Shown here: piece after piece, positions 6,898-54,972 of the stretch | Layout: every line of letters starts with the position of its first letter | Numbering within the stretch: the stretch's first letter is position 1 | Source: an uncultured Myxococcales bacterium | GTDB lineage: Bacteria; Myxococcota_A; UBA9160; UBA4427 | Length of the DNA: 64,000 nt | Assembly (NCBI GenBank): GCA_965603475.1 | Contig: CBFDDD010000013.1 | Location: 2,687-66,686 of the forward strand | Reading direction: 5' to 3' | Position numbers and translations under genes: made by a program | The notes under the pieces: model-generated | What the model saw: only the letters and a program-made list of their open reading frames with translations | The model's database searches: none | Told to the model about the DNA's origin: nothing

Positions 6898-6907
6898 AGG
6901 AAAGAAC

Positions 6908-7735: not shown

Positions 7736-7738
7736 TCG

Positions 7739-8647: not shown

Positions 8648-8654
8648 GACGCAG

Positions 8655-9788: not shown

Positions 9789-11299
9789 ATTCGGGAGCAG
9801 GACGCGTCTATCGAAGCGGCGATTGGCGGGCACCGTGGCTCGGCGCGCGGGCCGCCACCTCCCCGGAAGCGGTCGCACTCGTGTTCGAAGGTCGCAGCTT
9901 CGACTACGCCGAACTCGCCACCCGCGTCGACGCCGTCGCGCAAGTCTTCTCGGATGCGGGCGTCGGACGCGGCGATGTCGTGGCGGTTCAACTCGGCAAC
10001 GGACTCCCGATGGTCGAAGTCGTACACGCGGGATTCGTTGCGGATTTCGTGGTCCAGCTCGTCAACACGCGGTTGACCGCTTCGGAAATCGAGTTCCAGC
10101 TCCGCGACAGTGGGGCACGCTGGTTCGTGCATCTCGTCGGCGACCGGGACTGCGAAACGGTCGATCTCGAGCCGGGAGTCGAACGCCTGCGCGTTCGCGA
10201 TCGCCATTCGGCCGCATCGATCTCGGAGAAGACGACGCGTGGCAATCCTGATTTGGCGCCCGGGACCAAGCAGATCGACCTCGAATCCCCCCGCTTCATT
10301 CTCTACACATCGGGTACAACAGGTCAGCCGAAAGGCGTTGCGCTCACCGGCGCAAACCTACTGGCGAGTGCCGACGGCTCCGCGGCGTTGCTCGGCGCCG
10401 ACCCAGGGGATCGCTGGCTCGTCTGCCTTCCGATCTTCCACATCGGAGGCTTGTCGATCCTGCTGCGCAGCGTGCTTGCGGGTTCGGCGGTCGTACTCCA
10501 TGAGCGTTTCGACCCCGAGGCCGTCGATCGGGACCTCGAACGCGAGCGAATCACTGGAATCTCGCTCGTCGCAAACATGCTCGCGCGTGTGCTCGAAGTT
10601 CGTGATCGCGGGACCAAGCCTCAGCATCTCGCGTGTGTCCTGGTGGGTGGCGGACCGGTGCCCATTCCGCTGCGTGAAGCGGCGGTCCATGCAGGCTTTC
10701 CGGTTGCCGCGACCTACGGCCTCACCGAAGCGGCGTCACAGGTCGCGACCCGTCCGCCTGGTATGTCTGACGACCGAGGACTCGTGCCCCTGCCGGGAAC
10801 GGAGGTTCAGATCATTGACGAAACGGGGCGCGTACTCGCGGCCGACGAGACCGGCGAAATCTGCGTGCGCGGTGATTCGGTGATGGACGGATATTGGCAG
10901 CGTCCGGATGCCACTCGCGACGTACTGTCCGACGGCTGGCTCCGCACCGGTGACGTCGGCGCAATCGATCGCGAGGGCGGGTTGCATGTATTCGATCGGC
11001 GCAGCGATCTCATCGTGTCCGGAGGCGAGAACATATACCCCGCTGAAATCGAAGCGGTTCTCCTCTCTCATCCCGCTATCGCCGAAGCGGGTATCGGGGG
11101 CCGGGAGGACGAAATCTATGGAGCGCGCCCCGTCGCTTGGCTGGTGTGCGGCGAAGGCCAGACACCGACGGCCGAAGAACTGAGGGCATTCTGTAGGGCG
11201 CGACTTGCGGCCTACAAATGTCCAGCCGACTACCGATTCGTCGAAGCCCTGCCTCGCAACGCCACCGGCAAGCTCGTTCGCCGTCGACTCGGCGACTGA
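9785..11299 (+). CDS. menE: o-succinylbenzoate-CoA ligase (ANL adenylating enzyme)
   Basis: AMP-binding motif LYTSGTTGQPKGV, then GDVGAIDREG and SGGENIYPAEIE. GTG 9785 forms a GTGA overlap with the menC stop. The track start is GTG 9752. Confidence 0.85.
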   Translation: MNSGAGRVYRSGDWRAPWLGARAATSPEAVALVFEGRSFDYAELATRVDAVAQVFSDAGVGRGDVVAVQLGNGLPMVEVVHAGFVADFVVQLVNTRLTASEIEFQLRDSGARWFVHLVGDRDCETVDLEPGVERLRVRDRHSAASISEKTTRGNPDLAPGTKQIDLESPRFILYTSGTTGQPKGVALTGANLLASADGSAALLGADPGDRWLVCLPIFHIGGLSILLRSVLAGSAVVLHERFDPEAVDRDLERERITGISLVANMLARVLEVRDRGTKPQHLACVLVGGGPVPIPLREAAVHAGFPVAATYGLTEAASQVATRPPGMSDDRGLVPLPGTEVQIIDETGRVLAADETGEICVRGDSVMDGYWQRPDATRDVLSDGWLRTGDVGAIDREGGLHVFDRRSDLIVSGGENIYPAEIEAVLLSHPAIAEAGIGGREDEIYGARPVAWLVCGEGQTPTAEELRAFCRARLAAYKCPADYRFVEALPRNATGKLVRRRLGD

Positions 11300-28353: not shown

Positions 28354-29247
28354 CTAGTCCTCGAGCAGGGCGACTCGCTGCTCGAGATCCTCCAGGGATG
28401 CGATGTGATCCACTCCGCCTGGAAGTTTGATCGCGCTCGCGCCAGATCCACCGAGCCAGAGATGAATCGGGCCCGCCAACCCTTCGCGGAGGGCGAGAAT
28501 CGTACGCGTTGCCTGTGAAGTCGGGATCGTGACAAGACTCAGGCCTAGTGCCACTGCGCGGGTTTCCTCAACGGCACTCAGTAGATCGTCGACGGGCACC
28601 TCGCTTCCCAGATAAAGGGGGTTTGCTCCCGCGCCGAGCGCGGTCAGAGCCGCAATCAACCCACCGAGCTCGTGGCGCTCTCCGGTTGGCGTCGCGAATA
28701 CGACACGAGGACCCAGGATTGAGCTGGAGGTTTGTTGAAGCGCCGATCCGAGCAATGATCGAAGAATGCCTGTCGCAAGATGTTCTGCTGCAATGCCCAT
28801 CTCTCCATTGGCCCAGCGCACGCCGATCTCGTGCACGAGCGGAATTGCGATCTCGCGCGCAAACCTCGATGGACCCAGAGTGGACAGTTGAAAGGAGAGA
28901 AGCCTCTGGGAAGTCGCATCATCGAGTCGGTCGAGTGCAGCCAGGATCTCGTCGAGCTGGCCGGCCGGACGGGCTTCACCGACCGCCGACCTGCTTTTTA
29001 GCTCTGAGACGTCCAGCTTTGCGACTTTTCCGATCCGGTGACCTGCATCGACCGCGGCCTTCACCAGACGAAGCCGTTCAAGGTCGGCTGCGCTGTATCG
29101 CCGCGTCCCACCCGCCGTTCGAAGAGGCACGACGACTTCATATCGTCGTTCCCAAGCACGCAGTAGCTCCGGCGAAAGGCCGGTCAGCCGCGCGGCGGTG
29201 CGAAGTGGGTAGGTCAGCTCGAGTGGATCGCCTTCTGCTTCTGACAT
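28354..29247 (-). CDS. carH: CarH/LitR-type light-responsive regulator (MerR HTH plus cobalamin-binding domain), paralog 1
   Basis: MerR HTH YPLRTAARLTGLSPELLRAWERRYEVVVPLRTAGGTRRYS. Wx9EH motif in RWANGEMGIAAEHLATG. Lower-axial His motif in ATPTGERHELGG. Confidence 0.85.
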   Translation of the reverse strand: MSEAEGDPLELTYPLRTAARLTGLSPELLRAWERRYEVVVPLRTAGGTRRYSAADLERLRLVKAAVDAGHRIGKVAKLDVSELKSRSAVGEARPAGQLDEILAALDRLDDATSQRLLSFQLSTLGPSRFAREIAIPLVHEIGVRWANGEMGIAAEHLATGILRSLLGSALQQTSSSILGPRVVFATPTGERHELGGLIAALTALGAGANPLYLGSEVPVDDLLSAVEETRAVALGLSLVTIPTSQATRTILALREGLAGPIHLWLGGSGASAIKLPGGVDHIASLEDLEQRVALLED

Positions 29248-29392
29248 GGCCGTATTCTATATCGAATCACAGATCTGTCCATATTCAATCTCCTCAATCG
29301 TCCCCCCTTCAATTTACAAAAAATACTGTAAACCATTGTTTTATAACAATAAAAATGCACGATGAGTTGACAATCTGATCTCCAAAAAAAAT

Positions 29393-29440
29393 ATTGTATA
29401 GATAATATCTTGACAGAAACTCAAATCGAGAGGATAGTCC
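29393..29440. promoter_or_regulatory. bidirectional promoter/operator module, copy 1 (carH1 <-> SRPBCC operon)
   Basis: Plus strand: ATTGTATAGATAATATCTTGACA-N17-GATAGTCC, giving -35 TTGACA at 29410-15 and -10 GATAGT at 29433-38, then SD GGAGGA at 29455-60. Minus strand: TTGAGT (29424-19)-N18-TATACA (29400-395) pointing at carH1. An imperfect 21-bp palindrome TGTATAGATAATATCTTGACA spans both promoters. Confidence 0.55.
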
Positions 29441-29465
29441 CGCCATTGCGGAACGGAGGAGTGAA

Positions 29466-30047
29466 ATGGCCAGATATGTAGACGCGATTGACCTGCCCAT
29501 CCCAATAGAGGAGGCATTCGACTATCTCGCTGATTTCAGCCGCACCGCTGAATGGGACCCAGGCGTCGAGGAGTCTCATCGTCTAACGAAGGGCAAGGTC
29601 CGTGTCGGCAGCCGGTTCAATGTGATCGTTTCGTTTTTCGGGCAGTCGATTCCGCTCGAGTACGAGATCACCGAATTCGATCGACCCTCGCGTTTGGTCC
29701 TGAGCGGAGGCGATTCCTCCGTGCGTTCAATCGACGAAATTACCTTCGTCGCAAGACCTGGCGGTACCCGCGTCACCTACGAGGCGAGAATCGATCTGGT
29801 CGGCATTCGCCGGATAGCAGATCCCCTGGTCGATATTCTGATGCAGCGAGTCGGTCGCCTCGCGGTGCGAGGTTTGCGAGAGCGACTGTCTGGGATTGGC
29901 CAAATGAACAATGAACCGGGAGCGCCTCCCGAGGATGCGATTACGTCGAGGGAAGGCAAGCGTCGATCTTCTACGCGAAGCGGAAAAAGCGCCAGAGCCG
30001 CAAAAAACTTCACTTCCAATCAACAAGAAAAAGGAGTTGCATCATGA
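29466..30047 (+). CDS. SRPBCC (polyketide cyclase/dehydrase-like) family protein
   Basis: MARYVDAIDLPIPIEEAFDYLADFSRTAEWDPGV... is typical of the family. Confidence 0.8.
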   Translation: MARYVDAIDLPIPIEEAFDYLADFSRTAEWDPGVEESHRLTKGKVRVGSRFNVIVSFFGQSIPLEYEITEFDRPSRLVLSGGDSSVRSIDEITFVARPGGTRVTYEARIDLVGIRRIADPLVDILMQRVGRLAVRGLRERLSGIGQMNNEPGAPPEDAITSREGKRRSSTRSGKSARAAKNFTSNQQEKGVAS

Positions 30048-30280
30048 ACGTAAGAGTCGAAGAACCACGTGCGAAGGAGCGCGCAATTGAGAGGCGAGAG
30101 GTGATTCCAGGCGTCAGCAAACCAAAGGCATTGTTCATTCTGGCGGCCGGACTCTCGTTCCTGATGTCAGTGTCGCTCTTCTTCACAGGAAGCCAGGAGC
30201 AAGGAATCTACGTCGGCATCTGGGTTCCCTCGATCTTGTCGGCCGGTGCATTGTTGCTTGGAGGGAACGGTCGTGAGTGA
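30044..30280 (+). CDS. small membrane protein (2 predicted TM)
   Basis: ATGA overlap with the SRPBCC stop. ...KALFILAAGLSFLMSVSLFF...IYVGIWVPSILSAGALLLGG. Confidence 0.55.
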   Translation: MNVRVEEPRAKERAIERREVIPGVSKPKALFILAAGLSFLMSVSLFFTGSQEQGIYVGIWVPSILSAGALLLGGNGRE

Positions 30281-30437
30281 AGTTGTCCTACTGTCCTTTG
30301 GATGCGCTGTGAGCTTCATCGTCGTTGCAGCTGTCTATATCTATGTAACCGAAGACTTCGCGGGAGCCGAGGGATACCGCAAGCAGGAGGCGAAAAGCGC
30401 AGACGGCGAAGTCAAGGATCTTTCAAAAATGGCATGA
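30273..30437 (+). CDS. small membrane protein (1 TM)
   Basis: GTG 30273 overlaps the previous stop (GTGAGTGA). VSEVVLLSFGCAVSFIVVAAVYIYV, then a charged tail. Confidence 0.45.
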   Translation: MSEVVLLSFGCAVSFIVVAAVYIYVTEDFAGAEGYRKQEAKSADGEVKDLSKMA

Positions 30438-30574
30438 TCACATTCGAGGTCTGCGAGCCGGCGCTGAATACCCTGGCGATTATCGCTGTGGGGTTTGGGG
30501 GGCGAGTGACCGCATCGCCGTATTGGACTGCATGCCAGCGCAAAATCGAGAAGAACTCTGACTGTCGCAGATGA
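30434..30574 (+). CDS. possible 46-aa micro-ORF
   Basis: ATGA overlap with the previous stop. MITFEVCEPALNTLAIIAVGFGGRVTASPYWTACQRKIEKNSDCRR. Support comes only from the coupling geometry. Confidence 0.3.
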   Translation: MITFEVCEPALNTLAIIAVGFGGRVTASPYWTACQRKIEKNSDCRR

Positions 30575-30586
30575 GAGAGCAATATA

Positions 30587-32110
30587 ATGAGAATTGCAAA
30601 CAAGCTTTCACGCATTGAACTCTCTGATTGGACGGGGCAGCAAGAACGCCTTGGAGCATTCTGGCGAGAGCGTCCGGTCGTACTCGTATTCATTCGCCAC
30701 TTTGGTTGACTTTTTTGCCGAGAGCAAGTCGCGCAGTTGCGCGACCGAATGAACGAAATACGCGCCCAAGGAGCAGAGATCGTCATCGTCGGGAACGGAG
30801 CCGAAAATTTTGCGGCGGCCTTCCGAGAGGATTTCGACCTCGATTGTCCGATTCTGGTGGATCCGGATCTCCGCGCGTATCGCGCGGCCGGTCTTCGAAG
30901 AGGCCGGGTTGAACTGCTCTCCCCGAGGCTTCCTCTGAATGCGCTGCGCGCTCTTCGTGCAGGTTCTCGCCAGACGGGCGTTCAGGGTGACCCCTGGCAG
31001 CTCGGCGGATTGTTCGTGATTAGGCCTGATGGCGAGCTGATGTATCGACATGTTAGCCGCGAGGCGGGAGATCATCCGCCTGTGGACGAAATTCTCGAGG
31101 CGCTCGAAGAAGGGGCAGAGCCAATCTCCGATATGTCTGGTTCTTCCGCGGGTCAAGTCTGGCTGGGACGCGCGCTCAGTCGAGTCGTTGATCCATTCAT
31201 CGTTTCCTCCTTCGACCGAACTGGATTCCGAATTCATAGCTTGACCTTTGGGGCCGACGACCTGGATGTCGATCTCTCGGGAAGACGGTGTCTCGTTACC
31301 GGCGCGAACTCAGGGATCGGGTACGAGACAGCGTTGGCGATGGCGGACCTCGGCGCTGAGGTCGTGCTTCTCTGTCGCAATGCCGAGCGAGGTACCGAGG
31401 CGGTAGAGCGTGTGCGCCAGCAAACAGGAAATTCGCGGGTATCGCTCGAGATCGTCGACATGTCGGACATGGAATCGATTCGAGCGGCGGCGGTTCGGCT
31501 GAATTCAGCACCGATCGATATATTGGTGCACAATGCGGGCGTTCTGCCGGATGAGCGCGTCGAGAGCCGTGATGGGTTGGAACTCACACTGGCCACGCAT
31601 GTGGTCGGGCCATTCCTGCTCACGCGCCTACTGCGCGAGAGCCTGGAAAAGTCCTCCGATGGTCGGGTGATCTGGGTTTCGTCGGGTGGAATGTACTCTC
31701 GCCGATTGAATCTGGAGGATCCGAACTGGAAGGGTCGCGATTACGATGGTGTTCTCGCCTACGCCGAGACCAAGCGCGCCCAGGTGATCCTTGCTGAGCT
31801 CTGGGCTGAAGAACTGCGGGGGGGGCCCGTCGTCGTGAACGCGATGCATCCCGGTTGGGCTGACACGCCCGCCGTACAGGACTCGCTGCCTCGGTTCCAT
31901 AAAGTGACTCGTCATATCCTGCGTACGCCGGCCGAGGGGGCAGATACCGTTGTTTGGCTTGCGGCGTCCGAACAGGGGCGACGATCGACCGGTCGATTCT
32001 TCTTCGATCGAAGGGAGCGGAGAACCCATCTGATTCCCATCACGAGGGAATCCCAGAAGGATCGTCGAGCACTCTGGGCGCTTTGTGAAAATCTAAGCTC
32101 AAAGAGTTAG
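30587..32110 (+). CDS. peroxiredoxin-like (AhpC/TSA_2, PRXL2/SelU-like) domain with UxxC, fused to an SDR domain; predicted selenoprotein
   Basis: The frame is open from ATG 30587 to the stop at 32108-10 except for TGA 30707-09: ...RPVVLVFIRHFG[U]LFCREQVAQLRD... This aligns with the in-window paralog LLVFLRHFGCIFCREIVGDLRK. SDR part: CLVTGANSGIG, HNAG, YAETK. The track ORF starts only at TTG 30737. Confidence 0.75.
30728..30745 (+). promoter_or_regulatory. SECIS-like hairpin downstream of UGA 30707
   Basis: GTCGCGCA-GT-TGCGCGAC has perfect arms. A realistic fold is a 7-bp stem with an AGUU loop. It starts 18 nt after the UGA and carries GU at the apex. Confidence 0.55.
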
Positions 32111-32186
32111 CCGGTGCCAAACGATTCGATTTCTCCGTCAGCTGTGCTCCGTAACGTGGGGAGAAATTGAGACTCAATCGTCCGGT

Positions 32187-32414
32187 TCAACTCCAGCCTG
32201 GTTTCCACTGAGTGTTGTCCGCGAGTTCACACGCTCCTACGAATTGCTCACGACCGGACAGGATGGCGCGAAGGCGGACCGAACGGTCTTCTTGGCCGGC
32301 GACAGAACGTTTCACAACAGCGATAACGATAAAGTGCTTGTCGCGCTCCTTTGGAAGAGTTGCCGTCCAACTCGAGCCGAGGAGCTTCTTCGGGTGAATG
32401 ACGTTCGAGGGCAA
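32187..32414 (-). CDS. TIGR02450-like Trp-rich small protein
   Basis: ..VIHPKKLLGSSWTATLPKERDKHFIVIAV...NTQWKPGWS matches the family pattern (NPKKLL.SKWTA...EKHF.V...W..GW). The only in-frame start is TTG 32414. Confidence 0.7.
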   Translation of the reverse strand: MPSNVIHPKKLLGSSWTATLPKERDKHFIVIAVVKRSVAGQEDRSVRLRAILSGREQFVGACELADNTQWKPGWS

Positions 32415-32617
32415 GGTAGATTCTCCGCTCTTGGATCGGCTTTACGATGAACTCGCTACTGATATTGTCGTCACCGTTGATGATTCGTTCTGGTCTGATC
32501 GCAATGTAGCCCTCGAAGTCCAATCATGGACTGAGCGAAGCGCAGATTCGGATTTTGTGCGGACCCGCGTCAACGCTCCACGAGATTTCTAGAACGCCCT
32601 GGTTGAAGGATTCCAAC

Positions 32618-32947
32618 ATGCCCAACTACCCCGAAAAAACCTGCAGCATCGAGCGCCTCGTGCGCCAGAAGAAGCTCGTCGACGCGACCCTTGCTGGAAC
32701 CAAGACGGAGCAGCGGCGGGATGGCGTGTACGGCTATCCCGGCGAATCGTTCACGCTCGAATCACGCAGCTTCGAAATCGTCTCATTGACCCACGATCGT
32801 CTTGGCGACATGACGGACGAAGAAGCCCGCGCCGAAGGCTTCACGGATCTCGAAACCTACCGGGCGTTGATCATCCGGATGCATCGCGGGATGGAATGGG
32901 ATCCGGACCATCTCGTCTGGGTTCACCGTTTTCGAGAAGTGCGCTAG
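32618..32947 (+). CDS. ASCH-domain protein
   Basis: From ATG 32618, with SD GAAGGA at 32605-10: MPNYPEKTCSIERLVRQKKLVDATLAGTKTEQRR... Confidence 0.75.
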   Translation: MPNYPEKTCSIERLVRQKKLVDATLAGTKTEQRRDGVYGYPGESFTLESRSFEIVSLTHDRLGDMTDEEARAEGFTDLETYRALIIRMHRGMEWDPDHLVWVHRFREVR

Positions 32948-33012
32948 GTGAACGGTGTGGACGAGCGAGATGGGCTAATGTGCCCGAGCCCGTATCGCCA
33001 GGGAGTGCGACG

Positions 33013-33648
33013 ATGTCCTCGGATTCAGTGGTGAAGGAGCGCCGTGCCGATGAGCCTGAACCCGCCGCGGCGGTTCAGGGTCACGAAGGCGGCCTTCACC
33101 CAGATTCCATCTCGCCCGAGACACTCGAAGCATCCGTCGTGGGGGTCGGGCTTTCACCGGGTTCGTTGCGAGACCAACTCGCGTCGGCCGAGACACTGCT
33201 GGTCTTCCTGCGCCACTTCGGCTGCATCTTCTGTCGTGAGATCGTAGGAGACCTTCGCAAGGCGACGACGGAGATCGACAATTTCCCGGACGTGCTCTTC
33301 TTCTTCCAGGGGACGCCGACGGAGGGCCGTGCATTCCTCCGGCGTGATTGGCCGGACGCACGCGCGGTGGCCGACCCGGAGCTCGAATTCTACGAGCGCT
33401 TCGGTGTTCACCGAGCGAGTTATTTCGAAGCGCTCGGCCCCGCGGTGTTCGCCGCCGGTCGCAGAGCGCGAAAGAAGGGATACGAAGGCGGACCGCGCTC
33501 CGGCGATATCTGGAGAATGCCCGGGATCTTCGCTGTGGAGCGAGAGCGTGTGATCTGGTCGCATCGTCCTCGCCATGCTGCGGACCATCCCGACTTTAGT
33601 GAGATCCCATCACTGATTCGCGCTGCACAGGGGTCCGGCGGGCAGTGA
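33013..33648 (+). CDS. peroxiredoxin-like protein (AhpC/TSA_2), Cys form with CxxC
   Basis: From ATG 33013: ...LLVFLRHFGCIFCREIVGDLRK...IWRMPGIFAVERERVIW. It is the Cys-containing paralog of the N-terminal domain of 30587..32110. Confidence 0.8.
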   Translation: MSSDSVVKERRADEPEPAAAVQGHEGGLHPDSISPETLEASVVGVGLSPGSLRDQLASAETLLVFLRHFGCIFCREIVGDLRKATTEIDNFPDVLFFFQGTPTEGRAFLRRDWPDARAVADPELEFYERFGVHRASYFEALGPAVFAAGRRARKKGYEGGPRSGDIWRMPGIFAVERERVIWSHRPRHAADHPDFSEIPSLIRAAQGSGGQ

Positions 33649-34036
33649 GTTTCAAGAGGTCTCTCCCATTCGGATTTCTCGGTCTGGCCACTTTCTGGAC
33701 ATTCCACGCGGTCGCCGACATCAACCTCCCCGATCGGTATGCGCTTGGTCCCGCCCCGCGTGATTTCGGCGATTGATCAACGAGCTGGAGCGGCAATTTT
33801 TCTCACGGAACTTTCGGCGTCCGATTCCCATTCTTGATGCGTCGCCTGGGAACGCTCTTTCGAAGCGGGTCGGCCACACCCACGCGCGCGGGGAATGACG
33901 GCGTTTATCTGCGCGAGAACGCCACGGAATCAGACTGGGGCGGATCCATATTGACCTCGCCAATGATTCCTGAATCAAACAATCGCTCGAACCCGAACCC
34001 CGACTATCACTTATGTCATGGCGGCGACCCTACAGG

Positions 34037-36816: not shown

Positions 36817-38079
36817 CTAGAGGCAGCCGACTTCGAAGGCGATGGACTGCGCCACCTGGTTCTCACGAAGCTGCTCGAGCGCATGATGCTCGATTTGTCG
36901 GACTCGCTCTCGGCTTACGCCCAACTCACACCCAATATCGTTGAGCGAGCGCGGAGCATCTCCCCGCAATCCAAATCGCGCTTCGATGACTCGCTGTTCG
37001 CGCTCGGTCAGCGTCGGAATGATCTTCCGGATGCATTTATTGAGGACTCGCTCATCAATCGATGAGATGATTTCGTCCCCGTCATCTTTGACGAGCGTTT
37101 CTTCGACAGTCAGGTTTTCTGTCCGACCGACCAACGCTTGTGTCGAAACCTCAGCCGAGAGGCTGCGCCGAAGATCGTCCGATTGGCTTGGATCAATTTC
37201 GAGTCTTTCTATCAAATCCATCGGCGTCAGTTCAGCTGCGCTCGTGGCTCGTCCCGACTGCTCGATCTGCCGGAGCTTTCGCTTCTGGTCGATCAGTGGA
37301 CTCGGGATGCGAACCGTTCGCGAGTCGGTCGCGACTGAACGAACCAAAGACTGTTCGATCCACCAGATCGCATAGGTCGAAAATTTGTAACCACGGCGAT
37401 AGTCGAACTTCTCGACAGCACGCATCAATCCCAGATTGCCTTCCTGGATCAAGTCCAGGAAAGGGATATTCTGATTGCGATAGTTCTTGGCACAGCGAAT
37501 CACAAGTCGAAGATTGTGGTTGATGAAGAGGTTTTTGCTGTCTGTGAGCTGGGCGCGATGTTCGATCGCGAGGAGGAGAGATTTGCTGGAGTCCTTGTCT
37601 CTCATTAGTTCTTCGGAATCCTCCAGAGTCTCGAGGATCTCCAGAAGAAGAGGCAGCGCAAATTCGGCAGCGAGTACACTCTGGGCCAGCGCTTTGCGCA
37701 ATTCACGTCGATCCGTGGCTTTCTTGGATCTAGAGCGATCGAGCGCCAAAAGTGATGATTCGATCCCCACGAACGCCTCATCGATCAGCTTGTTCACATC
37801 CCTACTAGACCCGTCTCGATGCCATCGGGACAACGCGCCCGTCACTCGTCCCTGCGCTCGTTTTTCGCTCCAGCGCCCGAGGAGGATCCTCGCGGCCTCC
37901 GGAATCTCTGCAAGAGATTCTCGGAGCGACGCTTCCGCGGCTTCCATTCGCTTGAACAGCCTGAGTTGTTCCTCGGAATCCAGTACGGACATGTCAGCGA
38001 TGTCAGTGAGGTAGTCCTGAAGAACATCTCTTGAAGATCTGTCGCTCGCGGCCGCTTCAGATCCGGTTCGATATCCCAT
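36817..38079 (-). CDS. RpoD-like sigma-70 family sigma factor (regions 1.2, 2, 3 and 4 plus a non-conserved insert)
   Basis: NLRLVIRCAKNYRNQNIPFLDLIQEGNLGLMRAVEKFDYRRGYKFSTYAIWWIEQS is region 2, and LGVSRERVRQIEHHALEQLR is region 4.2. ATG 38079 is preceded by GGAG at a 7-nt spacing. The track start TTG 38109 is less likely. Confidence 0.9.
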   Translation of the reverse strand: MGYRTGSEAAASDRSSRDVLQDYLTDIADMSVLDSEEQLRLFKRMEAAEASLRESLAEIPEAARILLGRWSEKRAQGRVTGALSRWHRDGSSRDVNKLIDEAFVGIESSLLALDRSRSKKATDRRELRKALAQSVLAAEFALPLLLEILETLEDSEELMRDKDSSKSLLLAIEHRAQLTDSKNLFINHNLRLVIRCAKNYRNQNIPFLDLIQEGNLGLMRAVEKFDYRRGYKFSTYAIWWIEQSLVRSVATDSRTVRIPSPLIDQKRKLRQIEQSGRATSAAELTPMDLIERLEIDPSQSDDLRRSLSAEVSTQALVGRTENLTVEETLVKDDGDEIISSIDERVLNKCIRKIIPTLTEREQRVIEARFGLRGDAPRSLNDIGCELGVSRERVRQIEHHALEQLRENQVAQSIAFEVGCL

Positions 38080-38119
38080 GAATTGACTCCGTGTTTGGCG
38101 GGCGCCCAATCTCTTGGAC

Positions 38120-38223: not shown

Positions 38224-39189
38224 TTGGCAGAGATGGTCTGGCGAATGAAACAGTTCGAGAAAGCAAGGGACACTTCGGGTTATCCGGTCCGAGTGGCCGC
38301 GAGAATGACCGGTCTGAAGCCCGAATTGCTTCGTGCCTGGGAGATTCGATACCGCGCGGTGATACCAAGCCGAACCCAGGGCGGGTCTCGACGCTACTCC
38401 GGGGAGGACCTCGATCGGCTGATGCTTCTCCGAGACATCGTGGAATCTGGCCGTCGAATCGGAAAAATCGCTCATCTGAGCGTTGATGAACTCCAAGTCC
38501 TCCTTGTCGAGTCGAGGAGCCAGTATCCCAATGCAATGGAGCTAATCATCGCAGTCCTTCAGAGGCTCGATGGATTCAAAGCGCGACGCTTGCTGACCGA
38601 CGAACTGACGAGGCTTGGTTCGCTTGAATTCGTAACGAACCTTGTCCTTCCGCTTCTGTTCGAGATCGGTCGGCGCTGGGAGCGCGGAGACCTCACTATC
38701 TCGGCCGAACATCTCGCGTCGGGCGTCCTTCGGTCCATATTGATGACTCTCGTCGACGCCGAAAACGAGAATCGAGGGTCACCAAAGATCGTTTTCGCAA
38801 CGCCAAGCGGAGAGCCTCATGATCTTGGAACGCTCGCAGCGTCGATCGTCGCGAATCGGGCCGGAACCGATTTGGTTTTTCTAGGAGCAGATGTCCCCGC
38901 CAAAGATCTCGTCGATTGCGTCGTCCGCTCAAATGCATCGGCCCTCGTACTGGGAGTCGTGACATTGCCGAAAGAGAGCGCTGAGCGAATTCTCCGAGAA
39001 GTCCGAAAGGAACTGCCTGAAAAGATCGGCGTTCTAATCGGAGGTGCCGGAATCCAGGGCCTTGCACCTATCAAAGGCATTGATCGAATAGACAACCTCG
39101 GTCAGCTCGAGGCGCAACTCACAAACTTGGCACTCGGCGGGATCGCCAGTCCAATGGCACGGGAACAGAGTGGCTCGAAATGGACGTGA
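38224..39189 (+). CDS. carH: CarH/LitR-type light-responsive regulator (MerR HTH plus cobalamin-binding domain), paralog 2
   Basis: YPVRVAARMTGLKPELLRAWEIRYRAVIPSRTQGGSRRYS. Wx9EH motif in RWERGDLTISAEHLASG. ExH motif in ATPSGEPHDLG. The start is ambiguous: TTG 38224, ATG 38233 or ATG 38245. Confidence 0.85.
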   Translation: MAEMVWRMKQFEKARDTSGYPVRVAARMTGLKPELLRAWEIRYRAVIPSRTQGGSRRYSGEDLDRLMLLRDIVESGRRIGKIAHLSVDELQVLLVESRSQYPNAMELIIAVLQRLDGFKARRLLTDELTRLGSLEFVTNLVLPLLFEIGRRWERGDLTISAEHLASGVLRSILMTLVDAENENRGSPKIVFATPSGEPHDLGTLAASIVANRAGTDLVFLGADVPAKDLVDCVVRSNASALVLGVVTLPKESAERILREVRKELPEKIGVLIGGAGIQGLAPIKGIDRIDNLGQLEAQLTNLALGGIASPMAREQSGSKWT

Positions 39190-40189: not shown

Positions 40190-41650
40190 ATGACACGCGG
40201 AATTCACTGGTTCCGAAACGACTTGCGACTTCACGACAATCTCGCATTGACGGCGCTTGCCGAGCGGAGCACGGCTTGGCTTCCGATATTCGTGATCGAC
40301 CCGGCCATGCTCGCGCGGTCAGGCCGGGATTCTCCTCGTGCCCGCTTTCTTTTCGACTGTCTCGCACGACTAGAGGGTGATTTGTTGGCGAAAGGGTTTG
40401 CGCTTCAGATTCTTGAAGGAAAGCCGGAGAGATTGATTCCTGAACTGATGGCTAAAACCGGTGCAACCCTGGTTTCGTGGAACAACGCGTCAACTCCATT
40501 GGGTCAGCGTCGAGACCTGAAGGTTGCCAATGCAATTTCTCGAGCCGGAGGGCAGGCCATCCAGCTCGACGATCACACGGTATTTGGCCCGGACGAGATC
40601 AAAACCAAGGATGGCGGTCACTATCGCGTTTACACGCCCTATCGAAATGAATGGTGGAAGACGTGGGAGAGAGAGCCCCGACCTTCTTCATCGACGGCAC
40701 GGTACCCAAAGGCTAACATCCCAAAAATCGCGATCTCCCGAGAACGACATTCGACGTTCTTTTCCGAGAACGGGAGCAAGATTCGCCTACCGAGAGGCGG
40801 AGAAGAGAGCGCAAAGCGCCGGCTCCGAAACTTCCTGTCTGGGCCGGCGAGTCGATATCATCTCGACCGAGACCGCCCAGATATCGATGGAACCTCGCGC
40901 CTATCTCCCTACCTCCGCTTCGGCGCGATATCGGCGAGGAGATGTTTTACAGAGGGCCTTCGAAAGATCGAGTCCGATCCGCGCGCACGGCCCGGAATCT
41001 CGAAGTGGCTCGACGAGCTGATCTGGCGTGAGTTCTACAATGCGGTGCTCATCAACAACCCCCATGTGCTCTCCGGGGCTTTCAAGCCGGAGTACGACGA
41101 GCTCAACTGGAAAGGGAGCGCGGCGCAATTTGCGGCCTGGTGTGAGGGGCGGACTGGCTATCCCTTCGTGGATGCTGGGATGAGGCAGCTGCGTTCCACG
41201 GGTTGGATGCACAATCGAGTGCGTATGGTCGTCGCAAGTTTTCTGACGAAGGATTTGCTCGTTGACTGGCGTCGTGGTGAACGCTTTTTCTTTGATTCGC
41301 TTGTCGATGGCGACCCCGCCTCGAACAACGGTGGATGGCAGTGGTCGGCATCGACCGGGACCGACGCCCAGCCCTATTTCAGGATCTTCAATCCGGTCGT
41401 TCAAGGGAAGAAATGGGACCCAGATGGAAAATACATCCGTCGATGGGTCCCTGAACTGCGGAAAGTAGATCCCAAGTGGATTCATGCGCCCTGGCAGGAG
41501 CCGAGCTCTCGCGTTCAATACATAAGGCCCATTGTCGATCATGGCGTACAGCGGCGATTGGCCTTGGATGAGTTCAAAAGGGTCCGGGCGATCGGTGGAG
41601 GACCGCGTTTGCTGGTCCCAGAAACAGGAGCGAAGTCAGCCAATGAGTAA
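40190..41650 (+). CDS. phrB: deoxyribodipyrimidine (CPD) photolyase
   Basis: MTRGIHWFRNDLRLHDNLAL...SRLSPYLRFGAIS...GYPFVDAGMRQL..TGWMHNRVRMVVASFL...GGWQWSASTGTDAQPYFRIFNP. Confidence 0.95.
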   Translation: MTRGIHWFRNDLRLHDNLALTALAERSTAWLPIFVIDPAMLARSGRDSPRARFLFDCLARLEGDLLAKGFALQILEGKPERLIPELMAKTGATLVSWNNASTPLGQRRDLKVANAISRAGGQAIQLDDHTVFGPDEIKTKDGGHYRVYTPYRNEWWKTWEREPRPSSSTARYPKANIPKIAISRERHSTFFSENGSKIRLPRGGEESAKRRLRNFLSGPASRYHLDRDRPDIDGTSRLSPYLRFGAISARRCFTEGLRKIESDPRARPGISKWLDELIWREFYNAVLINNPHVLSGAFKPEYDELNWKGSAAQFAAWCEGRTGYPFVDAGMRQLRSTGWMHNRVRMVVASFLTKDLLVDWRRGERFFFDSLVDGDPASNNGGWQWSASTGTDAQPYFRIFNPVVQGKKWDPDGKYIRRWVPELRKVDPKWIHAPWQEPSSRVQYIRPIVDHGVQRRLALDEFKRVRAIGGGPRLLVPETGAKSANE

Positions 41651-42647
41651 TCTATCCGTGCGAGATAGACCAATCTGGATGGAGTGGCATGATACAGCCA
41701 TGCCGATCCGAGTCGGAGTCTCGGCCTGTCTACTCGGGGGAGAAGTTCGTTTCGACGGAGGTCACAAGCGAGATCGCTACCTAACGGATGTGCTCGGCGA
41801 GAACGTGACTTGGCTCCCGGTCTGCCCGGAGATCGAAGTCGGTATGGGGATTCCAAGGCCAGTGATTCAGCTTAGGCAGGGTGAGATCGGAGAACGGCTC
41901 GTCGAGAGAGAATCGGGCGAGGACTGGACGGATCGGATGCAGAAGTACGCAGATGCGCGGACATCCGAGCTTTCCCGCATCGGTCTCGACGGTTTCGTCC
42001 TCAAAAAAGATTCGCCTTCCTGTGGGATGGCTCGGGTTCGCGTCTACGGAAGACCGGGAGCAATGCCGTCAAAAGGAGGCGTCGGTCATTTCGCGCAGGC
42101 GCTGAATCGCGGAATGGCAGATCTTCCCATCGAGGAAGAGGGAAGACTCCGTGACGCGGTTCTGCGCGAACGATTTATCGAGGCGGTGTTCAGCCACAAT
42201 CGGTGGCGAGTTCTCGTATCGAGAGGCTTGACGCGAGGTCGGTTGGTCGCTTTCCACGAAGCGCACAAGATGCTGATTCTCGCCCACGACCAGCATATCT
42301 ACCGCGAACTGGGTCGCCTCGTGGCGAGTTTTGGTCGTGTCCCGGACGAGGAAGTGTACCCGGCCTACCATGCGCTCTTCGTCGCTGCATTTCGGAAGCC
42401 CACAACGATCTCGCGACATGTCAACGTGCTCGAGCATCTCTTCGGACACGTCAAGAAGAAGATCAACAGCGCCGAGAAAAGAGAAATCTCCGCAGCGATC
42501 GAAGACTACCGGGACGCTCGAAGTCCTCTCGTCGTCGTGATCTCGCTCTTGCGATTTCTCGTTGCGGCCCACGACGTCAAGTATGTGCGAGGGCAGCTCT
42601 ATCTAGAGCCTCACCCTCGCGAGCTGATGCTGAGAAATCATGTCTGA
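41643..42647 (+). CDS. ybgA: DUF523 plus DUF1722 protein (YbgA-like)
   Basis: IRVGVSACLLGGEVRFDGGHK is the DUF523 part and the helical C-terminal half is DUF1722. The start is uncertain, at ATG 41643 or a downstream Met. Confidence 0.85.
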   Translation: MSNLSVRDRPIWMEWHDTAMPIRVGVSACLLGGEVRFDGGHKRDRYLTDVLGENVTWLPVCPEIEVGMGIPRPVIQLRQGEIGERLVERESGEDWTDRMQKYADARTSELSRIGLDGFVLKKDSPSCGMARVRVYGRPGAMPSKGGVGHFAQALNRGMADLPIEEEGRLRDAVLRERFIEAVFSHNRWRVLVSRGLTRGRLVAFHEAHKMLILAHDQHIYRELGRLVASFGRVPDEEVYPAYHALFVAAFRKPTTISRHVNVLEHLFGHVKKKINSAEKREISAAIEDYRDARSPLVVVISLLRFLVAAHDVKYVRGQLYLEPHPRELMLRNHV

Positions 42648-54932: not shown

Positions 54933-54972
54933 GCTTGTCGAGTGTCAGGCTCATGTATCCATAATAGCCGGA

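What the first reader, a model, noticed from the sequence alone, without database searches (positions are those of the whole stretch)
30587..32110. In-frame UGA in a peroxiredoxin-like/SDR fusion gene: predicted UxxC selenoprotein that ORF callers truncate
The frame is open from ATG 30587 to the stop at 32108-10 apart from a single TGA at 30707-09. Translation across it gives MRIANKLSRIELSDWTGQQERLGAFWRERPVVLVFIRHFG[TGA]LFCREQVAQLRDRMNEIRAQGAEIVIVGNG... The paralog 2.3 kb downstream (33013-33648) reads ...LLVFLRHFGCIFCREIVGDLRK... So the TGA sits exactly on the first Cys of the CxxC of an AhpC/TSA_2 (PRXL2/SelU-like) fold. Eighteen nt after the TGA is a perfect-armed hairpin GTCGCGCA-GT-TGCGCGAC (30728-45) with GU at its apex, which fits bacterial SECIS geometry. 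The track starts this gene at TTG 30737 and so deletes the redox centre. The C-terminal ~300 aa are a classical SDR (TGANSGIG, NAG, YAETK). I have not seen a Sec-containing thiol-redox domain covalently fused to an NAD(P) reductase described. This one also sits at the end of an operon driven by a CarH-associated promoter.
Basis: partly seen in the sequence, partly recalled or inferred. Interest (0 to 1): 0.85.

Follow-up and report, generated by a model that had tools for sequence, protein, structure and literature searches.

The report
Light-regulon selenoprotein fused to a dehydrogenase
The in-frame TGA is almost certainly a selenocysteine codon in a peroxiredoxin-like (PRXL2/SelL-related) redox domain fused to a short-chain dehydrogenase; the gene belongs to a widespread family that gene callers truncate and that travels with B12-dependent light-sensor (CarH) gene clusters.

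Summary
The frame 30587-32110 is open except for one TGA at 30707-09.

- **TGA conservation.** The same TGA, at the same column (RHFG-TGA-LFCREQ), occurs in all 17 species-level genomes that carry the fusion. It also occurs in unfused stand-alone versions and in 119 of 120 metagenome contigs retrieved with that codon left free.
- **Coding on both sides.** The 40 upstream codons evolve as protein. Cys-containing homologues, and the solved PRXL2B structure, place the first Cys of their CxxC at this position.
- **SECIS.** The hairpin 18 nt downstream (7-bp stem, AGUU loop, 25 nt from UGA to loop, -12.1 kcal/mol) meets all four published bacterial SECIS criteria. It is frozen at synonymous sites, and its variants are mostly wobble-preserving.
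- **Family.** The N-domain belongs to NCBIfam "SelL-related redox protein" and Pfam AhpC-TSA_2. The C-domain is a classical SDR that sources name DHRS12.
- **Partnership.** The two modules occur fused, in tandem or divergent, so they are functional partners. They repeatedly sit beside CarH-type regulators, photolyase and other light-cluster genes.
- **Not shown.** Sec machinery in this genome could not be checked (none in the window). The biochemical function is inferred.

Verdict: a real, systematically mis-annotated selenoprotein. It is a new variant (architecture and regulon) of a known kind.

The parts
30587..32110 (+). Complete selenoprotein gene (507 aa plus stop): SelL-related/PRXL2-like redox domain, linker, classical SDR domain
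   Evidence: Open frame apart from the TGA. Full-length tblastn matches run through the TGA in 17 genomes. Domains from Pfam and NCBIfam.
30707..30709 (+). UGA codon read as selenocysteine (residue 41; first position of the U-L-F-C redox motif)
   Evidence: TGA in 18 of 18 fused orthologues and in 119 of 120 metagenome contigs with the codon left free. Cys sits at this column in stand-alone homologues. Aligns to catalytic Cys44 of PRXL2B.
30716..30718 (+). Codon of Cys44, the presumed resolving cysteine of UxxC
   Evidence: Invariant Cys (TGC 16, TGT 2) in 18 of 18 sequences. Aligns to Cys47 of PRXL2B.
30728..30745 (+). Bacterial SECIS-type hairpin: stem 30728-34 / 30739-45, loop AGUU 30735-38, 25 nt between UGA and loop
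   Evidence: Fold -12.1 kcal/mol. Synonymous sites are frozen, with third-position entropy 0-0.31 against 0.5-1.7 in flanking conserved codons, and Leu is TTG in 18 of 18. Variants are mostly wobble-preserving, and CGG is absent opposite G4. One compensatory G-C to A-U change.
30587..31129 (+). N-terminal thioredoxin-fold redox domain (aa 1-181), NF040769 / PF13911
   Evidence: NF040769 scores 152.8-156 bits against a cutoff of 120. PF13911 and PF00578 match. PRXL2B 9us9 at E = 9.5e-13.
31130..31279 (+). Linker plus the conserved N-terminal extension of the SDR (contains FDRTGF, 31211-28)
   Evidence: The same FSFDRTGF extension occurs in stand-alone SDR partners in L019, L045 and L088. Low-confidence region in the AF2 model.
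31280..32107 (+). Classical SDR domain: TGANSGIG 31298-321, HNAG 31529-40, SSGG 31679-90, YAETK 31760-74
   Evidence: adh_short 4.2e-26. PDB SDR matches. Motif coordinates. JGI names for homologues: 'dehydrogenase/reductase SDR family protein 12'.
28354..29247 (-). CarH/LitR-type regulator (MerR HTH plus B12-binding domains), divergent from the operon
   Evidence: Pfam MerR_1, B12-binding_2 and B12-binding. Homologues are adjacent to the Sec gene in 7 of 19 genome loci and on 16 metagenome contigs.
29254..29438 (.). AT-rich divergent intergenic region with sigma-70-like promoters on both strands (two TTGACA-17-nt sites facing the operon)
   Evidence: All four promoter-like hits within 29150-33800 fall here, and none lies directly upstream of 30587. 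CarH binding was not tested.
29466..30047 (+). SRPBCC / polyketide-cyclase-like gene, first gene of the putative operon
   Evidence: Pfam Polyketide_cyc2 6.5e-15. Syntenic in L001, L008 and L087, and near 18 SDR-only loci.
30044..30280 (+). Conserved small ORF (78 aa, no family) between the SRPBCC gene and the selenoprotein gene
   Evidence: 55-70% identical homologues in the same position in L001, L002, L003 and L005, and on 12 metagenome contigs. No Pfam or NCBIfam hit.
32896..33648 (+). Cys-containing paralogue of the redox domain (HFGCIFCRE; the conserved part starts near 33013); no SECIS-like hairpin
   Evidence: NF040769 145.8 bits. The hairpin-equivalent 18 nt folds at only -0.5 kcal/mol. 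A 66% identical orthologue lies downstream of the fusion in L012.

Best explanation
Gene 30587-32110 encodes one 507-residue selenoprotein.

Decoding (inferred from comparative evidence). SelB with Sec-tRNA(Sec) reads UGA 30707-09 as selenocysteine. It is recruited by the hairpin at 30728-45, which lies inside the coding sequence (7-bp stem, AGUU loop).

Chemistry of the N-domain (by homology). Sec41 is the attacking residue of a U-L-F-C motif at the start of the first helix of a PRXL2/SelL-related thioredoxin fold. By analogy with PRXL2B (prostamide/PGF synthase), the selenolate reduces an organic peroxide or endoperoxide. This forms a selenenylsulfide with Cys44, which an external thiol system such as thioredoxin then reduces.

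Role of the SDR (inferred). The C-terminal NAD(P)(H)-dependent classical SDR most likely acts on the same substrate family, reducing or oxidising the carbonyl or alcohol products of peroxide reduction. It is unlikely to feed electrons to the Sec centre.

Regulation (inferred from synteny). The gene is probably the distal gene of an operon transcribed from the promoter region shared with a divergent CarH-type B12 photoreceptor-repressor. It would then be made in the light as part of a photo-oxidative (singlet-oxygen) damage response.

What is shown: the conserved TGA, coding conservation on both sides, Sec/Cys pairing, nucleotide-level constraint on the hairpin, family membership, the domain partnership and the synteny. 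What is inferred: actual Sec insertion, substrates, the reductant and light induction.
For: 1. TGA conservation.
- TGA is invariant at the same column in 18 of 18 fused orthologues at 57-77% identity.
- It is present in unfused forms L019, L045, L085, L087, L088 and L090.
- It is present in 119 of 120 metagenome contigs retrieved with that codon unspecified: 1 CGA, 0 Cys.

2. The upstream 40-56 codons are conserved as protein, with free synonymous variation.

3. All 120 closest database proteins are truncated just after the TGA. Stand-alone forms are split by gene callers into a 40-43-aa ORF plus an ORF of about 140 aa.

4. Cys homologues (HFGCLFCREQV) exist. PRXL2B Cys44 aligns to the U.

5. 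Hairpin.
[quoted passage not shown] Here: AGUU, 7 bp, 25 nt, -12.1 kcal/mol.
- Synonymous sites are frozen. Leu is TTG in 18 of 18 against 6% background use.
- The Arg codon opposite G4 is CGC 91, CGT 20, CGG 0, against a background of CGG 26% and CGT 9%.
- 42 of 49 variant sequences preserve pairing by wobble.
- L016 has a compensatory A-U pair.
- L045 has a different hairpin with an AGGUG loop.
- Deep Cys paralogues lack the hairpin.

6. TGA is the commonest ordinary stop in the window (28 of 48 genes), so there is no code reassignment.

7. The N-domain scores above cutoff for NF040769.

8. The SDR and Sec-Prx modules occur fused (17 genomes, 47-50 contigs), in tandem as SDR then Prx (L019, L045 and 3 contigs) and divergent (L088, SDR 63% identical).

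9. CarH-type regulator, photolyase, DUF523/DUF1722, SRPBCC and PNPOx-like genes recur next to it. LitR/CarH light clusters with an SDR and a photolyase are documented in Pseudomonas (PMC9758184).
Against: - No tRNA-Sec, SelA, SelB or SelD in the 64-kb window, nor in 1.4 Mb of related loci. The rest of the genome could not be searched.
- No Rfam SECIS hit. The 62-nt region is not more stable than shuffles.
- True covariation in the stem is sparse: one compensatory pair. Several sequences carry a mismatch (L002, L003, L087, L088).
- Two non-Sec variants (L080 TGC, L081 CGA) keep the hairpin, so hairpin and Sec are not perfectly coupled.
- The conserved peptide REQVAQLRD could explain part of the nucleotide conservation.
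- The AF2 model gives no reliable interdomain geometry (pLDDT 70, pTM 0.57).
- There is no experimental evidence for substrate, reductant, light induction or CarH binding.
Confidence: 0.9

Rival explanations
1. Self-contained NAD(P)H-driven peroxidase. The SDR domain passes reducing equivalents from NAD(P)H directly to the selenenylsulfide of the fused redox domain, so the protein recycles itself without thioredoxin.
For: Covalent fusion and conserved gene pairing in three arrangements. The fused form was seen only with Sec, never with Cys, among the listed hits. The PRXL2B literature describes the reaction as NADPH-dependent overall (PMC12938796).
Against: Classical SDRs transfer hydride to carbonyl, imine or C=C groups. 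No flavin or other mediator domain is present; Pfam finds only AhpC-TSA_2/AhpC-TSA and SDR families. The same SDR subfamily is common without any Prx partner: about 60 SDR-only loci. 34 stand-alone Sec-Prx genes have no SDR on their contig, although most of those contigs are short. The linker is long and predicted to be disordered.
Confidence: 0.08
2. The TGA is a genuine stop. The locus makes a 40-aa peptide and, separately, a 457-aa protein from TTG 30737 (or from a start right after the TGA) that lacks the redox centre. The hairpin would be a translational-coupling or attenuation element.
For: This is what gene callers output. In some homologues ATG or GTG directly follows the TGA. No Sec machinery was found in the sequence held.
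Against: The 40 upstream codons form the first strand and loop of the thioredoxin fold and are contiguous with the rest in Cys homologues and in PRXL2B. A fold split before its catalytic residue would be non-functional, yet both halves are under purifying selection in more than 130 sequences. The codon after the TGA is usually CTG or CTC, which is not a start. Cys never replaces TGA when the hairpin is present, apart from one contig, L080.
Confidence: 0.03
3. UGA is read through without the Sec system, by near-cognate Trp or Cys tRNA or a suppressor. The result would be a Cys or Trp protein at low level, with the hairpin merely slowing termination.
For: Machinery not verified. Stop-codon read-through stimulated by downstream structures is known in general (my knowledge).
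Against: The hairpin matches the SelB-type SECIS model in loop sequence and spacing (PMC13188914). The position is the catalytic Cys of a CxxC, which is the classic Sec/Cys exchange site. Maintaining TGA in hundreds of lineages when TGC would give full expression is hard to explain without a benefit from Sec. Members of this superfamily are established selenoproteins (SELENOU, SELENOL; PMC13134290).
Confidence: 0.03
4. Assembly or sequencing error, or a pseudogene, in this particular genome.
For: A single-base change (TGC to TGA) would produce it. Raw reads are not available.
Against: The identical TGA occurs in 17 independent genomes and in 119 metagenome contigs from many samples. The rest of the gene is intact.
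Confidence: 0.01

Closest known systems
PRXL2B / SELENOU3 (prostamide/prostaglandin F synthase; PDB 9us9) and the SELENOU (PRXL2A/B/C) family
   Same: Best solved-structure match of the N-domain (E = 9.5e-13 over aa 16-178). Same Pfam family, AhpC-TSA_2. The redox motif sits in the same place (RRFG-C-VV-C-R against RHFG-U-LF-C-R), with the U on catalytic Cys44. SELENOU1 members in fish and birds are Sec proteins (PMC13134290). PRXL2B reduces an endoperoxide with its CxxC (PMC12938796).
   Different: Bacterial rather than eukaryotic. Uses a coding-region SECIS. Sequence similarity is low. Has Arg-His instead of Arg-Arg before the motif. Fused or paired with an SDR. Sits in a light-regulated context. 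The substrate is unknown.
SelL / SELENOL and NCBIfam NF040769 'SelL-related redox protein'
   Same: The N-domain and the Cys paralogue score above the NF040769 cutoff (153 and 146 bits against 120). SelL is a Prx-like selenoprotein of aquatic organisms (PMC2398784, PMC13134290).
   Different: SelL is defined by a UxxU diselenide motif. Here the motif is UxxC in every sequence examined, so this is not SelL proper.
Bacterial Prx-like / redoxin UxxC selenoproteins (Prx-like thiol:disulfide oxidoreductase PF00578; Redoxin family PF08534; cd02970 UxxS) listed in the 2026 prokaryotic selenoproteome review
   Same: Thioredoxin-fold proteins with Sec at the first position of the redox motif and a coding-region SECIS. 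All were predicted computationally from Sec/Cys pairs (PMC13188914, Table 1).
   Different: None of the 119 listed families or subfamilies is an SDR fusion, and none is assigned to NF040769 or PF13911. The GOS fusion selenoproteins involve PP2C, Secretin_N-like and unknown domains, not an SDR. The HFGU motif is absent from the held GOS supplements.
LitR/CarH light-inducible gene clusters (Myxococcus, Thermus, Bacillus, Pseudomonas)
   Same: A MerR plus B12-binding regulator lies next to the target genes. The Pseudomonas clusters hold a photolyase, an SDR, an FAD oxidoreductase and a furan-fatty-acid synthase (PMC9758184). L088 shows the same set plus the Sec-Prx.
   Different: No selenoprotein has been reported in these regulons in the papers I found. 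Regulation here is inferred from synteny only.
DHRS12-type classical SDRs
   Same: TGxxxGIG, NAG and S...YxxxK motifs and a conserved N-terminal extension (FDRTGF). Source names for homologues are 'DHRS12'.
   Different: Orthology to animal DHRS12 was not tested. The best PDB match is an uncharacterised mycobacterial SDR, 3rd5. No substrate is known.

Membership tests
Bacterial selenoprotein gene (Sec-UGA plus bSECIS) | In-frame UGA conserved among orthologues, with protein-level conservation on both sides | tested here: met
   18 of 18 fused orthologues, 6 unfused forms and 119 of 120 metagenome contigs carry TGA. The upstream codons show synonymous drift with conserved residues.
Bacterial selenoprotein gene (Sec-UGA plus bSECIS) | Cys-containing homologues with Cys aligned to the UGA | tested here: met
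   About 24 stand-alone HFGC(L/V)FC proteins, the window's own paralogue and PRXL2B Cys44.
Bacterial selenoprotein gene (Sec-UGA plus bSECIS) | bSECIS model: 3-9 nt apical loop, 4-16 bp stem, G in the first two loop positions (N-G-[G/U]-N), 16-37 nt from UGA to loop, MFE at or below -7.5 kcal/mol (PMC13188914, Fig. 2) | tested here: met
   Loop AGUU, 7-bp stem, 25 nt spacing, -12.1 kcal/mol. Conserved across loci.
Bacterial selenoprotein gene (Sec-UGA plus bSECIS) | selA, selB, selC (tRNA-Sec) and selD present in the same genome | not testable with these tools
   None in the 64-kb window or in the fetched loci.
Bacterial selenoprotein gene (Sec-UGA plus bSECIS) | Selenium demonstrably incorporated (75Se labelling or mass spectrometry) | not testable with these tools
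   Requires an experiment.
NF040769 SelL-related redox protein / PF13911 AhpC-TSA_2 (PRXL2/SELENOU superfamily) | Profile score above the curated cutoff | tested here: met
   NF040769 152.8-156.1 bits against 120. PF13911 60.6 bits against 27.
NF040769 SelL-related redox protein / PF13911 AhpC-TSA_2 (PRXL2/SELENOU superfamily) | CxxC-type redox motif at the position of PRXL2B Cys44/Cys47 | tested here: met
   The phmmer alignment to 9us9 places U41 and C44 on C44 and C47.
SelL (SELENOL) proper | UxxU motif (two Sec residues forming a diselenide) | tested here: not met
   The second position is an invariant Cys codon, TGC or TGT.
Canonical peroxiredoxin (PF00578 with peroxidatic PxxxT/SxxC) | The Pro-x-x-x-Thr/Ser-x-x-Cys(Sec) active-site motif | tested here: not met
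   The sequence around the Sec is VLVFIRHFG-U-LFC, with no PxxxT/S. The PF00578 match is weaker than the PF13911 match.
Classical short-chain dehydrogenase/reductase | TGxxxGxG cofactor motif, NNAG-type motif and the Ser...Tyr-x-x-x-Lys catalytic residues | tested here: met
   TGANSGIG, HNAG, SSGG and YAETK. adh_short 4.2e-26. The motifs are conserved in the alignment consensus.
Flavoprotein disulfide reductase fusions (TrxR / AhpF type NAD(P)H to disulfide relay) | FAD-binding pyridine-nucleotide-disulfide oxidoreductase domain | tested here: not met
   Only thioredoxin-fold and SDR families are detected.
CarH/LitR-controlled light-inducible operon | Adjacent MerR-HTH plus B12-binding regulator | tested here: met
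   Gene 28354-29247(-) has MerR_1, B12-binding_2 and B12-binding. The adjacency recurs in other species.
CarH/LitR-controlled light-inducible operon | Regulator binds the operator at the promoter, and transcription is induced by light | not testable with these tools
   Only sigma-70-like promoter matches were found in the shared intergenic region.

The most novel reading that the evidence does not exclude
The Sec-PRXL2-like module and its SDR partner form a two-step, light-induced repair or detoxification pathway for singlet-oxygen adducts of membrane lipids, for example the endoperoxides formed when furan or polyunsaturated fatty acids trap singlet oxygen. The selenolate would cleave the O-O bond, as PRXL2B does with PGH2. 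The NADPH-dependent SDR would then reduce the resulting reactive dicarbonyl or enedione. This would be the first selenoenzyme placed in a B12/CarH photoreceptor regulon, and a bacterial counterpart of the eukaryotic SELENOU/PRXL2 chemistry.
Probability: 0.2. Interest if true: 0.75.

Novelty: new variant of a known kind. Interest (0 to 1): 0.55.

Why it matters
- **Annotation.** Hundreds of database entries for this family, including NCBI MAG annotations named 'SDR family NAD(P)-dependent oxidoreductase', start after the TGA and lack the catalytic centre. Stand-alone versions are split into two ORFs. A simple DNA pattern recovers them cleanly.
- **Selenoproteome.** The finding adds a widespread architecture (Sec thioredoxin-fold domain plus SDR) and a family (NF040769/PF13911, UxxC) that I did not find among the 119 catalogued prokaryotic selenoprotein families or subfamilies.
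- **Biology.** It links selenocysteine use to the B12-dependent light response, in clusters with CarH, photolyase and furan-fatty-acid genes. That gives a concrete, testable context for why Sec rather than Cys is kept: fast reaction with organic peroxides and resistance to over-oxidation under photo-oxidative stress.
- **Function of uncharacterised proteins.** The fused, tandem and divergent gene arrangements give a functional handle on two poorly understood protein groups, DHRS12-type SDRs and PRXL2-like proteins.

Tried and rejected
- **Rfam.** No family matched at gathering threshold on the whole window or at a permissive E-value on 30680-30800, and there was no SECIS model hit. Bacterial SECIS elements are family-specific, so this is uninformative.
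- **Folding energy.** The 62-nt region is no more stable than shuffles (z = 0.17), so single-sequence thermodynamics does not support the hairpin. I relied on comparative data instead.
- **Sec machinery.** ARAGORN found no tRNA in the window. tblastn with E. coli SelA, SelB and SelD against the window plus 1.4 Mb of loci gave no hits.
- **Other selenoprotein candidates.** A crude scan of the window, based on coding signal on both sides of a TGA, was noisy, missed even the target and gave nothing credible.
- **Structure prediction.** The model of residues 42-507 is mediocre (pLDDT 69.9, pTM 0.57, linker disordered). I did not use it for domain-domain geometry and did not run a fold search.
- **Hairpin control in Cys forms.** This was only partly clean. 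Deep Cys forms lack the hairpin, but the two closest non-Sec variants (L080 TGC, L081 CGA) retain it. I read these as recent conversions or errors with a fossil SECIS.
- **Published datasets.** The held GOS supplements contain no HFGU motif.
- **Rejected explanations.** Code reassignment of TGA, because TGA terminates 28 of 48 window genes. Membership of SelL proper, because the motif is UxxC and not UxxU. Canonical Prx, because there is no PxxxT/SxxC motif.
Full report
**Observation.** The frame from ATG 30587 to TAG 32108-10 is open apart from one TGA at 30707-09. The mechanical ORF list contains only 30737-32110, with a TTG start and 457 aa, which removes the first 50 residues. The translation around the stop reads ...VVLVFIRHFG-*-LFCREQVAQLRD.... 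The palindrome GTCGCGCAGTTGCGCGAC lies at 30728-45 and is unique in the window. With the stop replaced by Cys, Pfam finds AhpC-TSA_2 (aa 50-158), AhpC-TSA (aa 5-151) and adh_short (aa 235-432). The SDR motifs TGANSGIG, HNAG, SSGG and YAETK are present. The downstream paralogue (ORF 32896-33648) reads HFGCIFCRE. One correction: a 2-nt loop is not feasible, and the predicted hairpin is a 7-bp stem closed by an AGUU loop.

**Is the TGA real and conserved?** A search of 5.8 billion proteins with the full-length U-to-C sequence returned 120 listed hits at 74-94% identity. All are about 459 aa, all cover about 90% of the query, and every one starts after the TGA position. Several start exactly one codon after it ('MFCREQVAQL...'). 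That is what systematic truncation at a conserved stop looks like.

A scan of one genome per species found 17 loci that match residues 1 to about 504 straight through the stop. They are labelled Myxococcota or 'Deltaproteobacteria' MAGs, plus three labelled Spirochaetales or Spirochaetaceae (L011, L012, L017), and identity is 57-77%. In all 17, plus the window, the codon is TGA at the same column. The 40-56 upstream codons are conserved as protein while their third positions drift: Val -9 uses all four codons and Gly -1 uses GGT or GGC.

TGA is also the commonest ordinary stop in the window, ending 28 of 48 genes, so the genetic code is standard. A sequencing error or pseudogene is excluded.

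**Sec/Cys pairing.** A search with the N-domain alone found two classes of stand-alone protein:
- full-length proteins of 173-225 aa with HFG-C-(L/V)FC, at 44-59% identity;
- many proteins of 125-145 aa that begin just after the motif.

For the second class, gene callers emit a 40-43-aa ORF ending at the TGA, immediately followed by an ORF of about 140 aa, and the codon is TGA.

The best solved structure is human prostamide/PGF synthase, PRXL2B (9us9, E = 9.5e-13). Its catalytic Cys44 and Cys47 (RRFG-C-VV-C-R) align with U41 and C44. The UGA therefore sits on the nucleophilic Cys of a CxxC, which is the classical site of Sec/Cys exchange.

**The hairpin as a SECIS.** The published bacterial SECIS model requires a 3-9 nt apical loop, a 4-16 bp upper stem, a G in the first two loop positions (pattern N-G-[G/U]-N), 16-37 nt between UGA and loop, and an MFE at or below -7.5 kcal/mol (PMC13188914, Fig. 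2). The element here has an AGUU loop, a 7-bp stem, 25 nt of spacing and -12.1 kcal/mol, so all four criteria are met.

Single-sequence thermodynamics is not informative (z = 0.17), and Rfam has no matching model. The weight rests on comparative evidence:
- **Synonymous freezing.** In the 18 protein-retrieved orthologues, the six hairpin codons (GTC GCG CAG TTG CGC GAC) have third-position entropy of 0-0.31 bits. Other equally conserved residues nearby have 0.5-1.7 bits: Arg +4 has 1.68 and Gly +21 has 1.70. Leu is TTG in 18 of 18 sequences, although TTG makes up only 6% of Leu codons in the rest of these genes.
- **Codon at the Sec position.** I scanned public metagenomes with a pattern that fixed the motif and the 5' part of the hairpin but left the Sec-position codon and the last four stem bases free. 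Of 120 contigs, 119 have TGA, one has CGA and none has Cys.
- **Free stem positions.** The Arg codon's third base, which pairs with G4, is C in 91 sequences, T in 20, A in 1 and G in 0. The background in the same genes is CGG 26% and CGT 9%.
- **Variant types.** Of 49 variant hairpins, 42 differ only by wobble-preserving changes (G·U or U·G).
- **Covariation.** L016 has a compensatory G-C to A-U pair and L019 has C-G to U-G. L045, the most divergent member, has a different hairpin (GCGAGC-AGGUG-GCUCGC) that again has GU in the loop.
- **Cys forms.** Deep Cys forms (L082, the window's paralogue and L012's paralogue) have no hairpin.

Points against:
- Strict covariation is sparse.
- A few sequences carry a mismatch (L002, L003, L087, L088).
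- Two close non-Sec variants (L080 TGC, L081 CGA) keep the hairpin. I interpret these as recent conversions or errors with a fossil SECIS.
- The conserved peptide REQVAQLRD accounts for some, but not the synonymous-site, conservation.

**Sec machinery.** The window has no tRNA. E. coli SelA, SelB and SelD find nothing in the window or in 1.4 Mb of related loci. It is the main reason confidence is not higher.

**What the protein is.**
- **N-domain.** It scores above the curated cutoff of NCBIfam NF040769, 'SelL-related redox protein' (153-156 bits against 120). The Cys paralogue does too (146 bits).
- **What it is not.** It is not SelL proper, whose defining feature is a UxxU diselenide motif (PMC13134290); here the second position is an invariant Cys. 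It is not a canonical peroxiredoxin, because it has no PxxxT/SxxC motif.
- **Superfamily.** It belongs to the PRXL2/SELENOU superfamily. SELENOU1 is a selenoprotein in fish and birds (PMC13134290). PRXL2B reduces the endoperoxide of PGH2 through the thiolate of Cys44, assisted by Arg40 and Arg41 (PMC12938796). Here an invariant Arg-His precedes G-U.
- **C-domain.** It is a classical SDR with a conserved N-terminal extension (FDRTGF). Sources name homologues 'DHRS12'. The nearest structure is an uncharacterised mycobacterial SDR.
- **Reductase question.** There is no flavin domain, so this is not a TrxR- or AhpF-like NAD(P)H-to-disulfide relay.

**The partnership of the two modules.** The same two modules occur in three arrangements:
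- fused as Prx-SDR, in 17 genomes and 47-50 of the 120 metagenome contigs;
- as adjacent separate genes in the order SDR then Sec-Prx, in L019 (Acidobacteriota), L045 and three contigs;
- divergently transcribed, in L088, where the SDR is 63% identical to the window's SDR domain.

This is Rosetta-stone evidence that they work together. No Cys-containing fusion appeared among the listed hits of either protein search. The SDR subfamily also exists widely without a Prx partner, in about 60 loci, and 34 stand-alone Sec-Prx genes have no SDR on their (mostly short) contigs. This argues against an obligatory electron relay between the two domains.

**Genomic context.** Upstream and divergent lies a MerR-HTH plus B12-binding regulator of the CarH/LitR type (28354-29247). 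The shared AT-rich intergenic region holds all four sigma-70-like promoter matches found in 29150-33800, two of them facing the operon. The operon then runs: an SRPBCC gene (29466-30047), a conserved 78-aa ORF (30044-30280), a 306-nt gap, then the selenoprotein gene.

Homologues of the regulator lie next to the Sec gene in 7 of 19 genome loci, usually divergent and immediately upstream. They also lie on 16 of the short metagenome contigs, together with photolyase (7), DUF523/DUF1722 (9), PNPOx-like (11), SRPBCC (10) and the 78-aa ORF (12). L088 shows the full picture: amine oxidase, CFA-synthase-like gene, DUF1365, SDR, Sec-Prx, CarH-like regulator, PNPOx, photolyase and DUF523/DUF1722. This mirrors the light-inducible LitR clusters of Pseudomonas, which hold a photolyase, an SDR, an FAD oxidoreductase and the furan-fatty-acid synthase UfaM (PMC9758184). 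The window itself holds a second CarH-like gene (38224-39189), a sigma factor, DUF523/DUF1722, NmrA-like, DUF1295 and further SRPBCC genes. Light control is therefore a well-supported inference from synteny, but it has not been demonstrated.

**Mechanism proposed.**
- *Decoding (supported by comparative evidence):* SelB with Sec-tRNA(Sec), bound to the coding-region hairpin, decodes UGA41 as Sec.
- *Chemistry (by homology to PRXL2B and UxxC redox proteins):* the selenolate attacks an organic peroxide or endoperoxide, forms a selenenylsulfide with Cys44, and is recycled by a thioredoxin-type reductant.
- *Role of the SDR (from gene pairing and SDR chemistry):* the SDR uses NAD(P)(H) on the carbonyl or alcohol products of the same substrates.
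- *Regulation (from synteny):* the module is expressed in the light to deal with singlet-oxygen damage to lipids.

**Novelty.** Thioredoxin-fold UxxC selenoproteins are common in bacteria, and Sec in the PRXL2/SelL superfamily is established, so the kind is known. Three things I did not find described:
- a Sec form of NF040769/PF13911 with UxxC among the 119 families or subfamilies of the 2026 review;
- any SDR fusion among the selenoprotein fusions described in the GOS study, whose held supplements also lack the HFGU motif;
- a selenoprotein in a CarH/LitR cluster.

My literature access is limited to open-access full text. I rate this a new variant of a known kind. It is of moderate interest, with clear value for annotation and a testable biological hypothesis.

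Noticed in passing
window 32896-33648 (+); L012 11617-12144: A Cys-containing paralogue of the same SelL-related redox domain (HFGCIFCRE, NF040769 146 bits) lies 0.8 kb downstream of the selenoprotein gene. It has a poorly conserved N-terminal extension of about 80 aa. A 66% identical orthologue occupies the same position after the fusion gene in L012. So some genomes keep a Sec copy and a Cys copy side by side.
   Followed up: partly
L080 126-722; L081 186-740: Two stand-alone homologues have TGC (Cys) or CGA (Arg) at the Sec column but retain the exact SECIS hairpin GTTGCGCAGTTGCGCGAC. One further CGA case appeared among the 120 metagenome contigs. These may be recent Sec-to-Cys or Sec-to-Arg conversions with a fossil SECIS, or single-base assembly errors.
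   Followed up: partly
window 30044-30280 (+): A 78-aa ORF with no Pfam or NCBIfam family is conserved (55-70% identity) and syntenic between the CarH/SRPBCC genes and the selenoprotein gene in at least four genomes and on 12 metagenome contigs. It looks like an uncharacterised small protein of the light cluster.
   Followed up: partly
window 28354-29247 (-) and 38224-39189 (+): There are two CarH/LitR-type regulators (MerR HTH plus B12-binding) about 9 kb apart. Between them and after them lie a sigma-70-family factor (36817-38109), SRPBCC, DUF1295, epimerase/DUF1731, DUF523/DUF1722 (41532-42647) and NmrA-like genes. This looks like an extended light-response island, although no photolyase was identified in the window.
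   Followed up: partly
window 41532-42647 (+): This DUF523 (2-thiouracil desulfurase-like) plus DUF1722 gene carries Cys (…GVSACLLGG…). The 2026 review lists Sec-containing DUF523 proteins (SxSUG) in other bacteria. Here it appears to be the Cys form, judged by eye without an alignment.
   Followed up: no
window 1965-11299 (+): A run of co-directional genes looks like a menaquinone biosynthesis operon: methyltransferase, isochorismate synthase-like, MenD-like, MenB-like crotonase, prenyltransferase, MenC-like and an acyl-CoA synthetase. I recognised these from the translations only and did not run them against family libraries.
   Followed up: no
window 53358-54932 (-) and 54931-56178 (+): An oleate-hydratase-type MCRA gene (5.6e-199) sits back-to-back with a membrane fatty-acid desaturase/hydroxylase-family gene. 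These are further lipid-modifying enzymes in the neighbourhood.
   Followed up: no
window 30281-30586: A 306-nt gap lies between the 78-aa ORF and the selenoprotein start. It contains only a non-conserved 90-aa ORF (30302-30574) and no promoter-like match. The equivalent spacing varies from 220 to about 800 nt in other species. Whether it holds a regulatory element or a second promoter is unknown.
   Followed up: no
L011, L012, L017 (genome contigs record titles): Three MAGs that carry the fusion are labelled Spirochaetales or Spirochaetaceae. One has the isolate name 'HK-STAS-MYXO-51'. Their loci resemble the Myxococcota ones, which suggests mislabelled or mis-binned taxonomy rather than a wide phyletic spread.
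   Followed up: no
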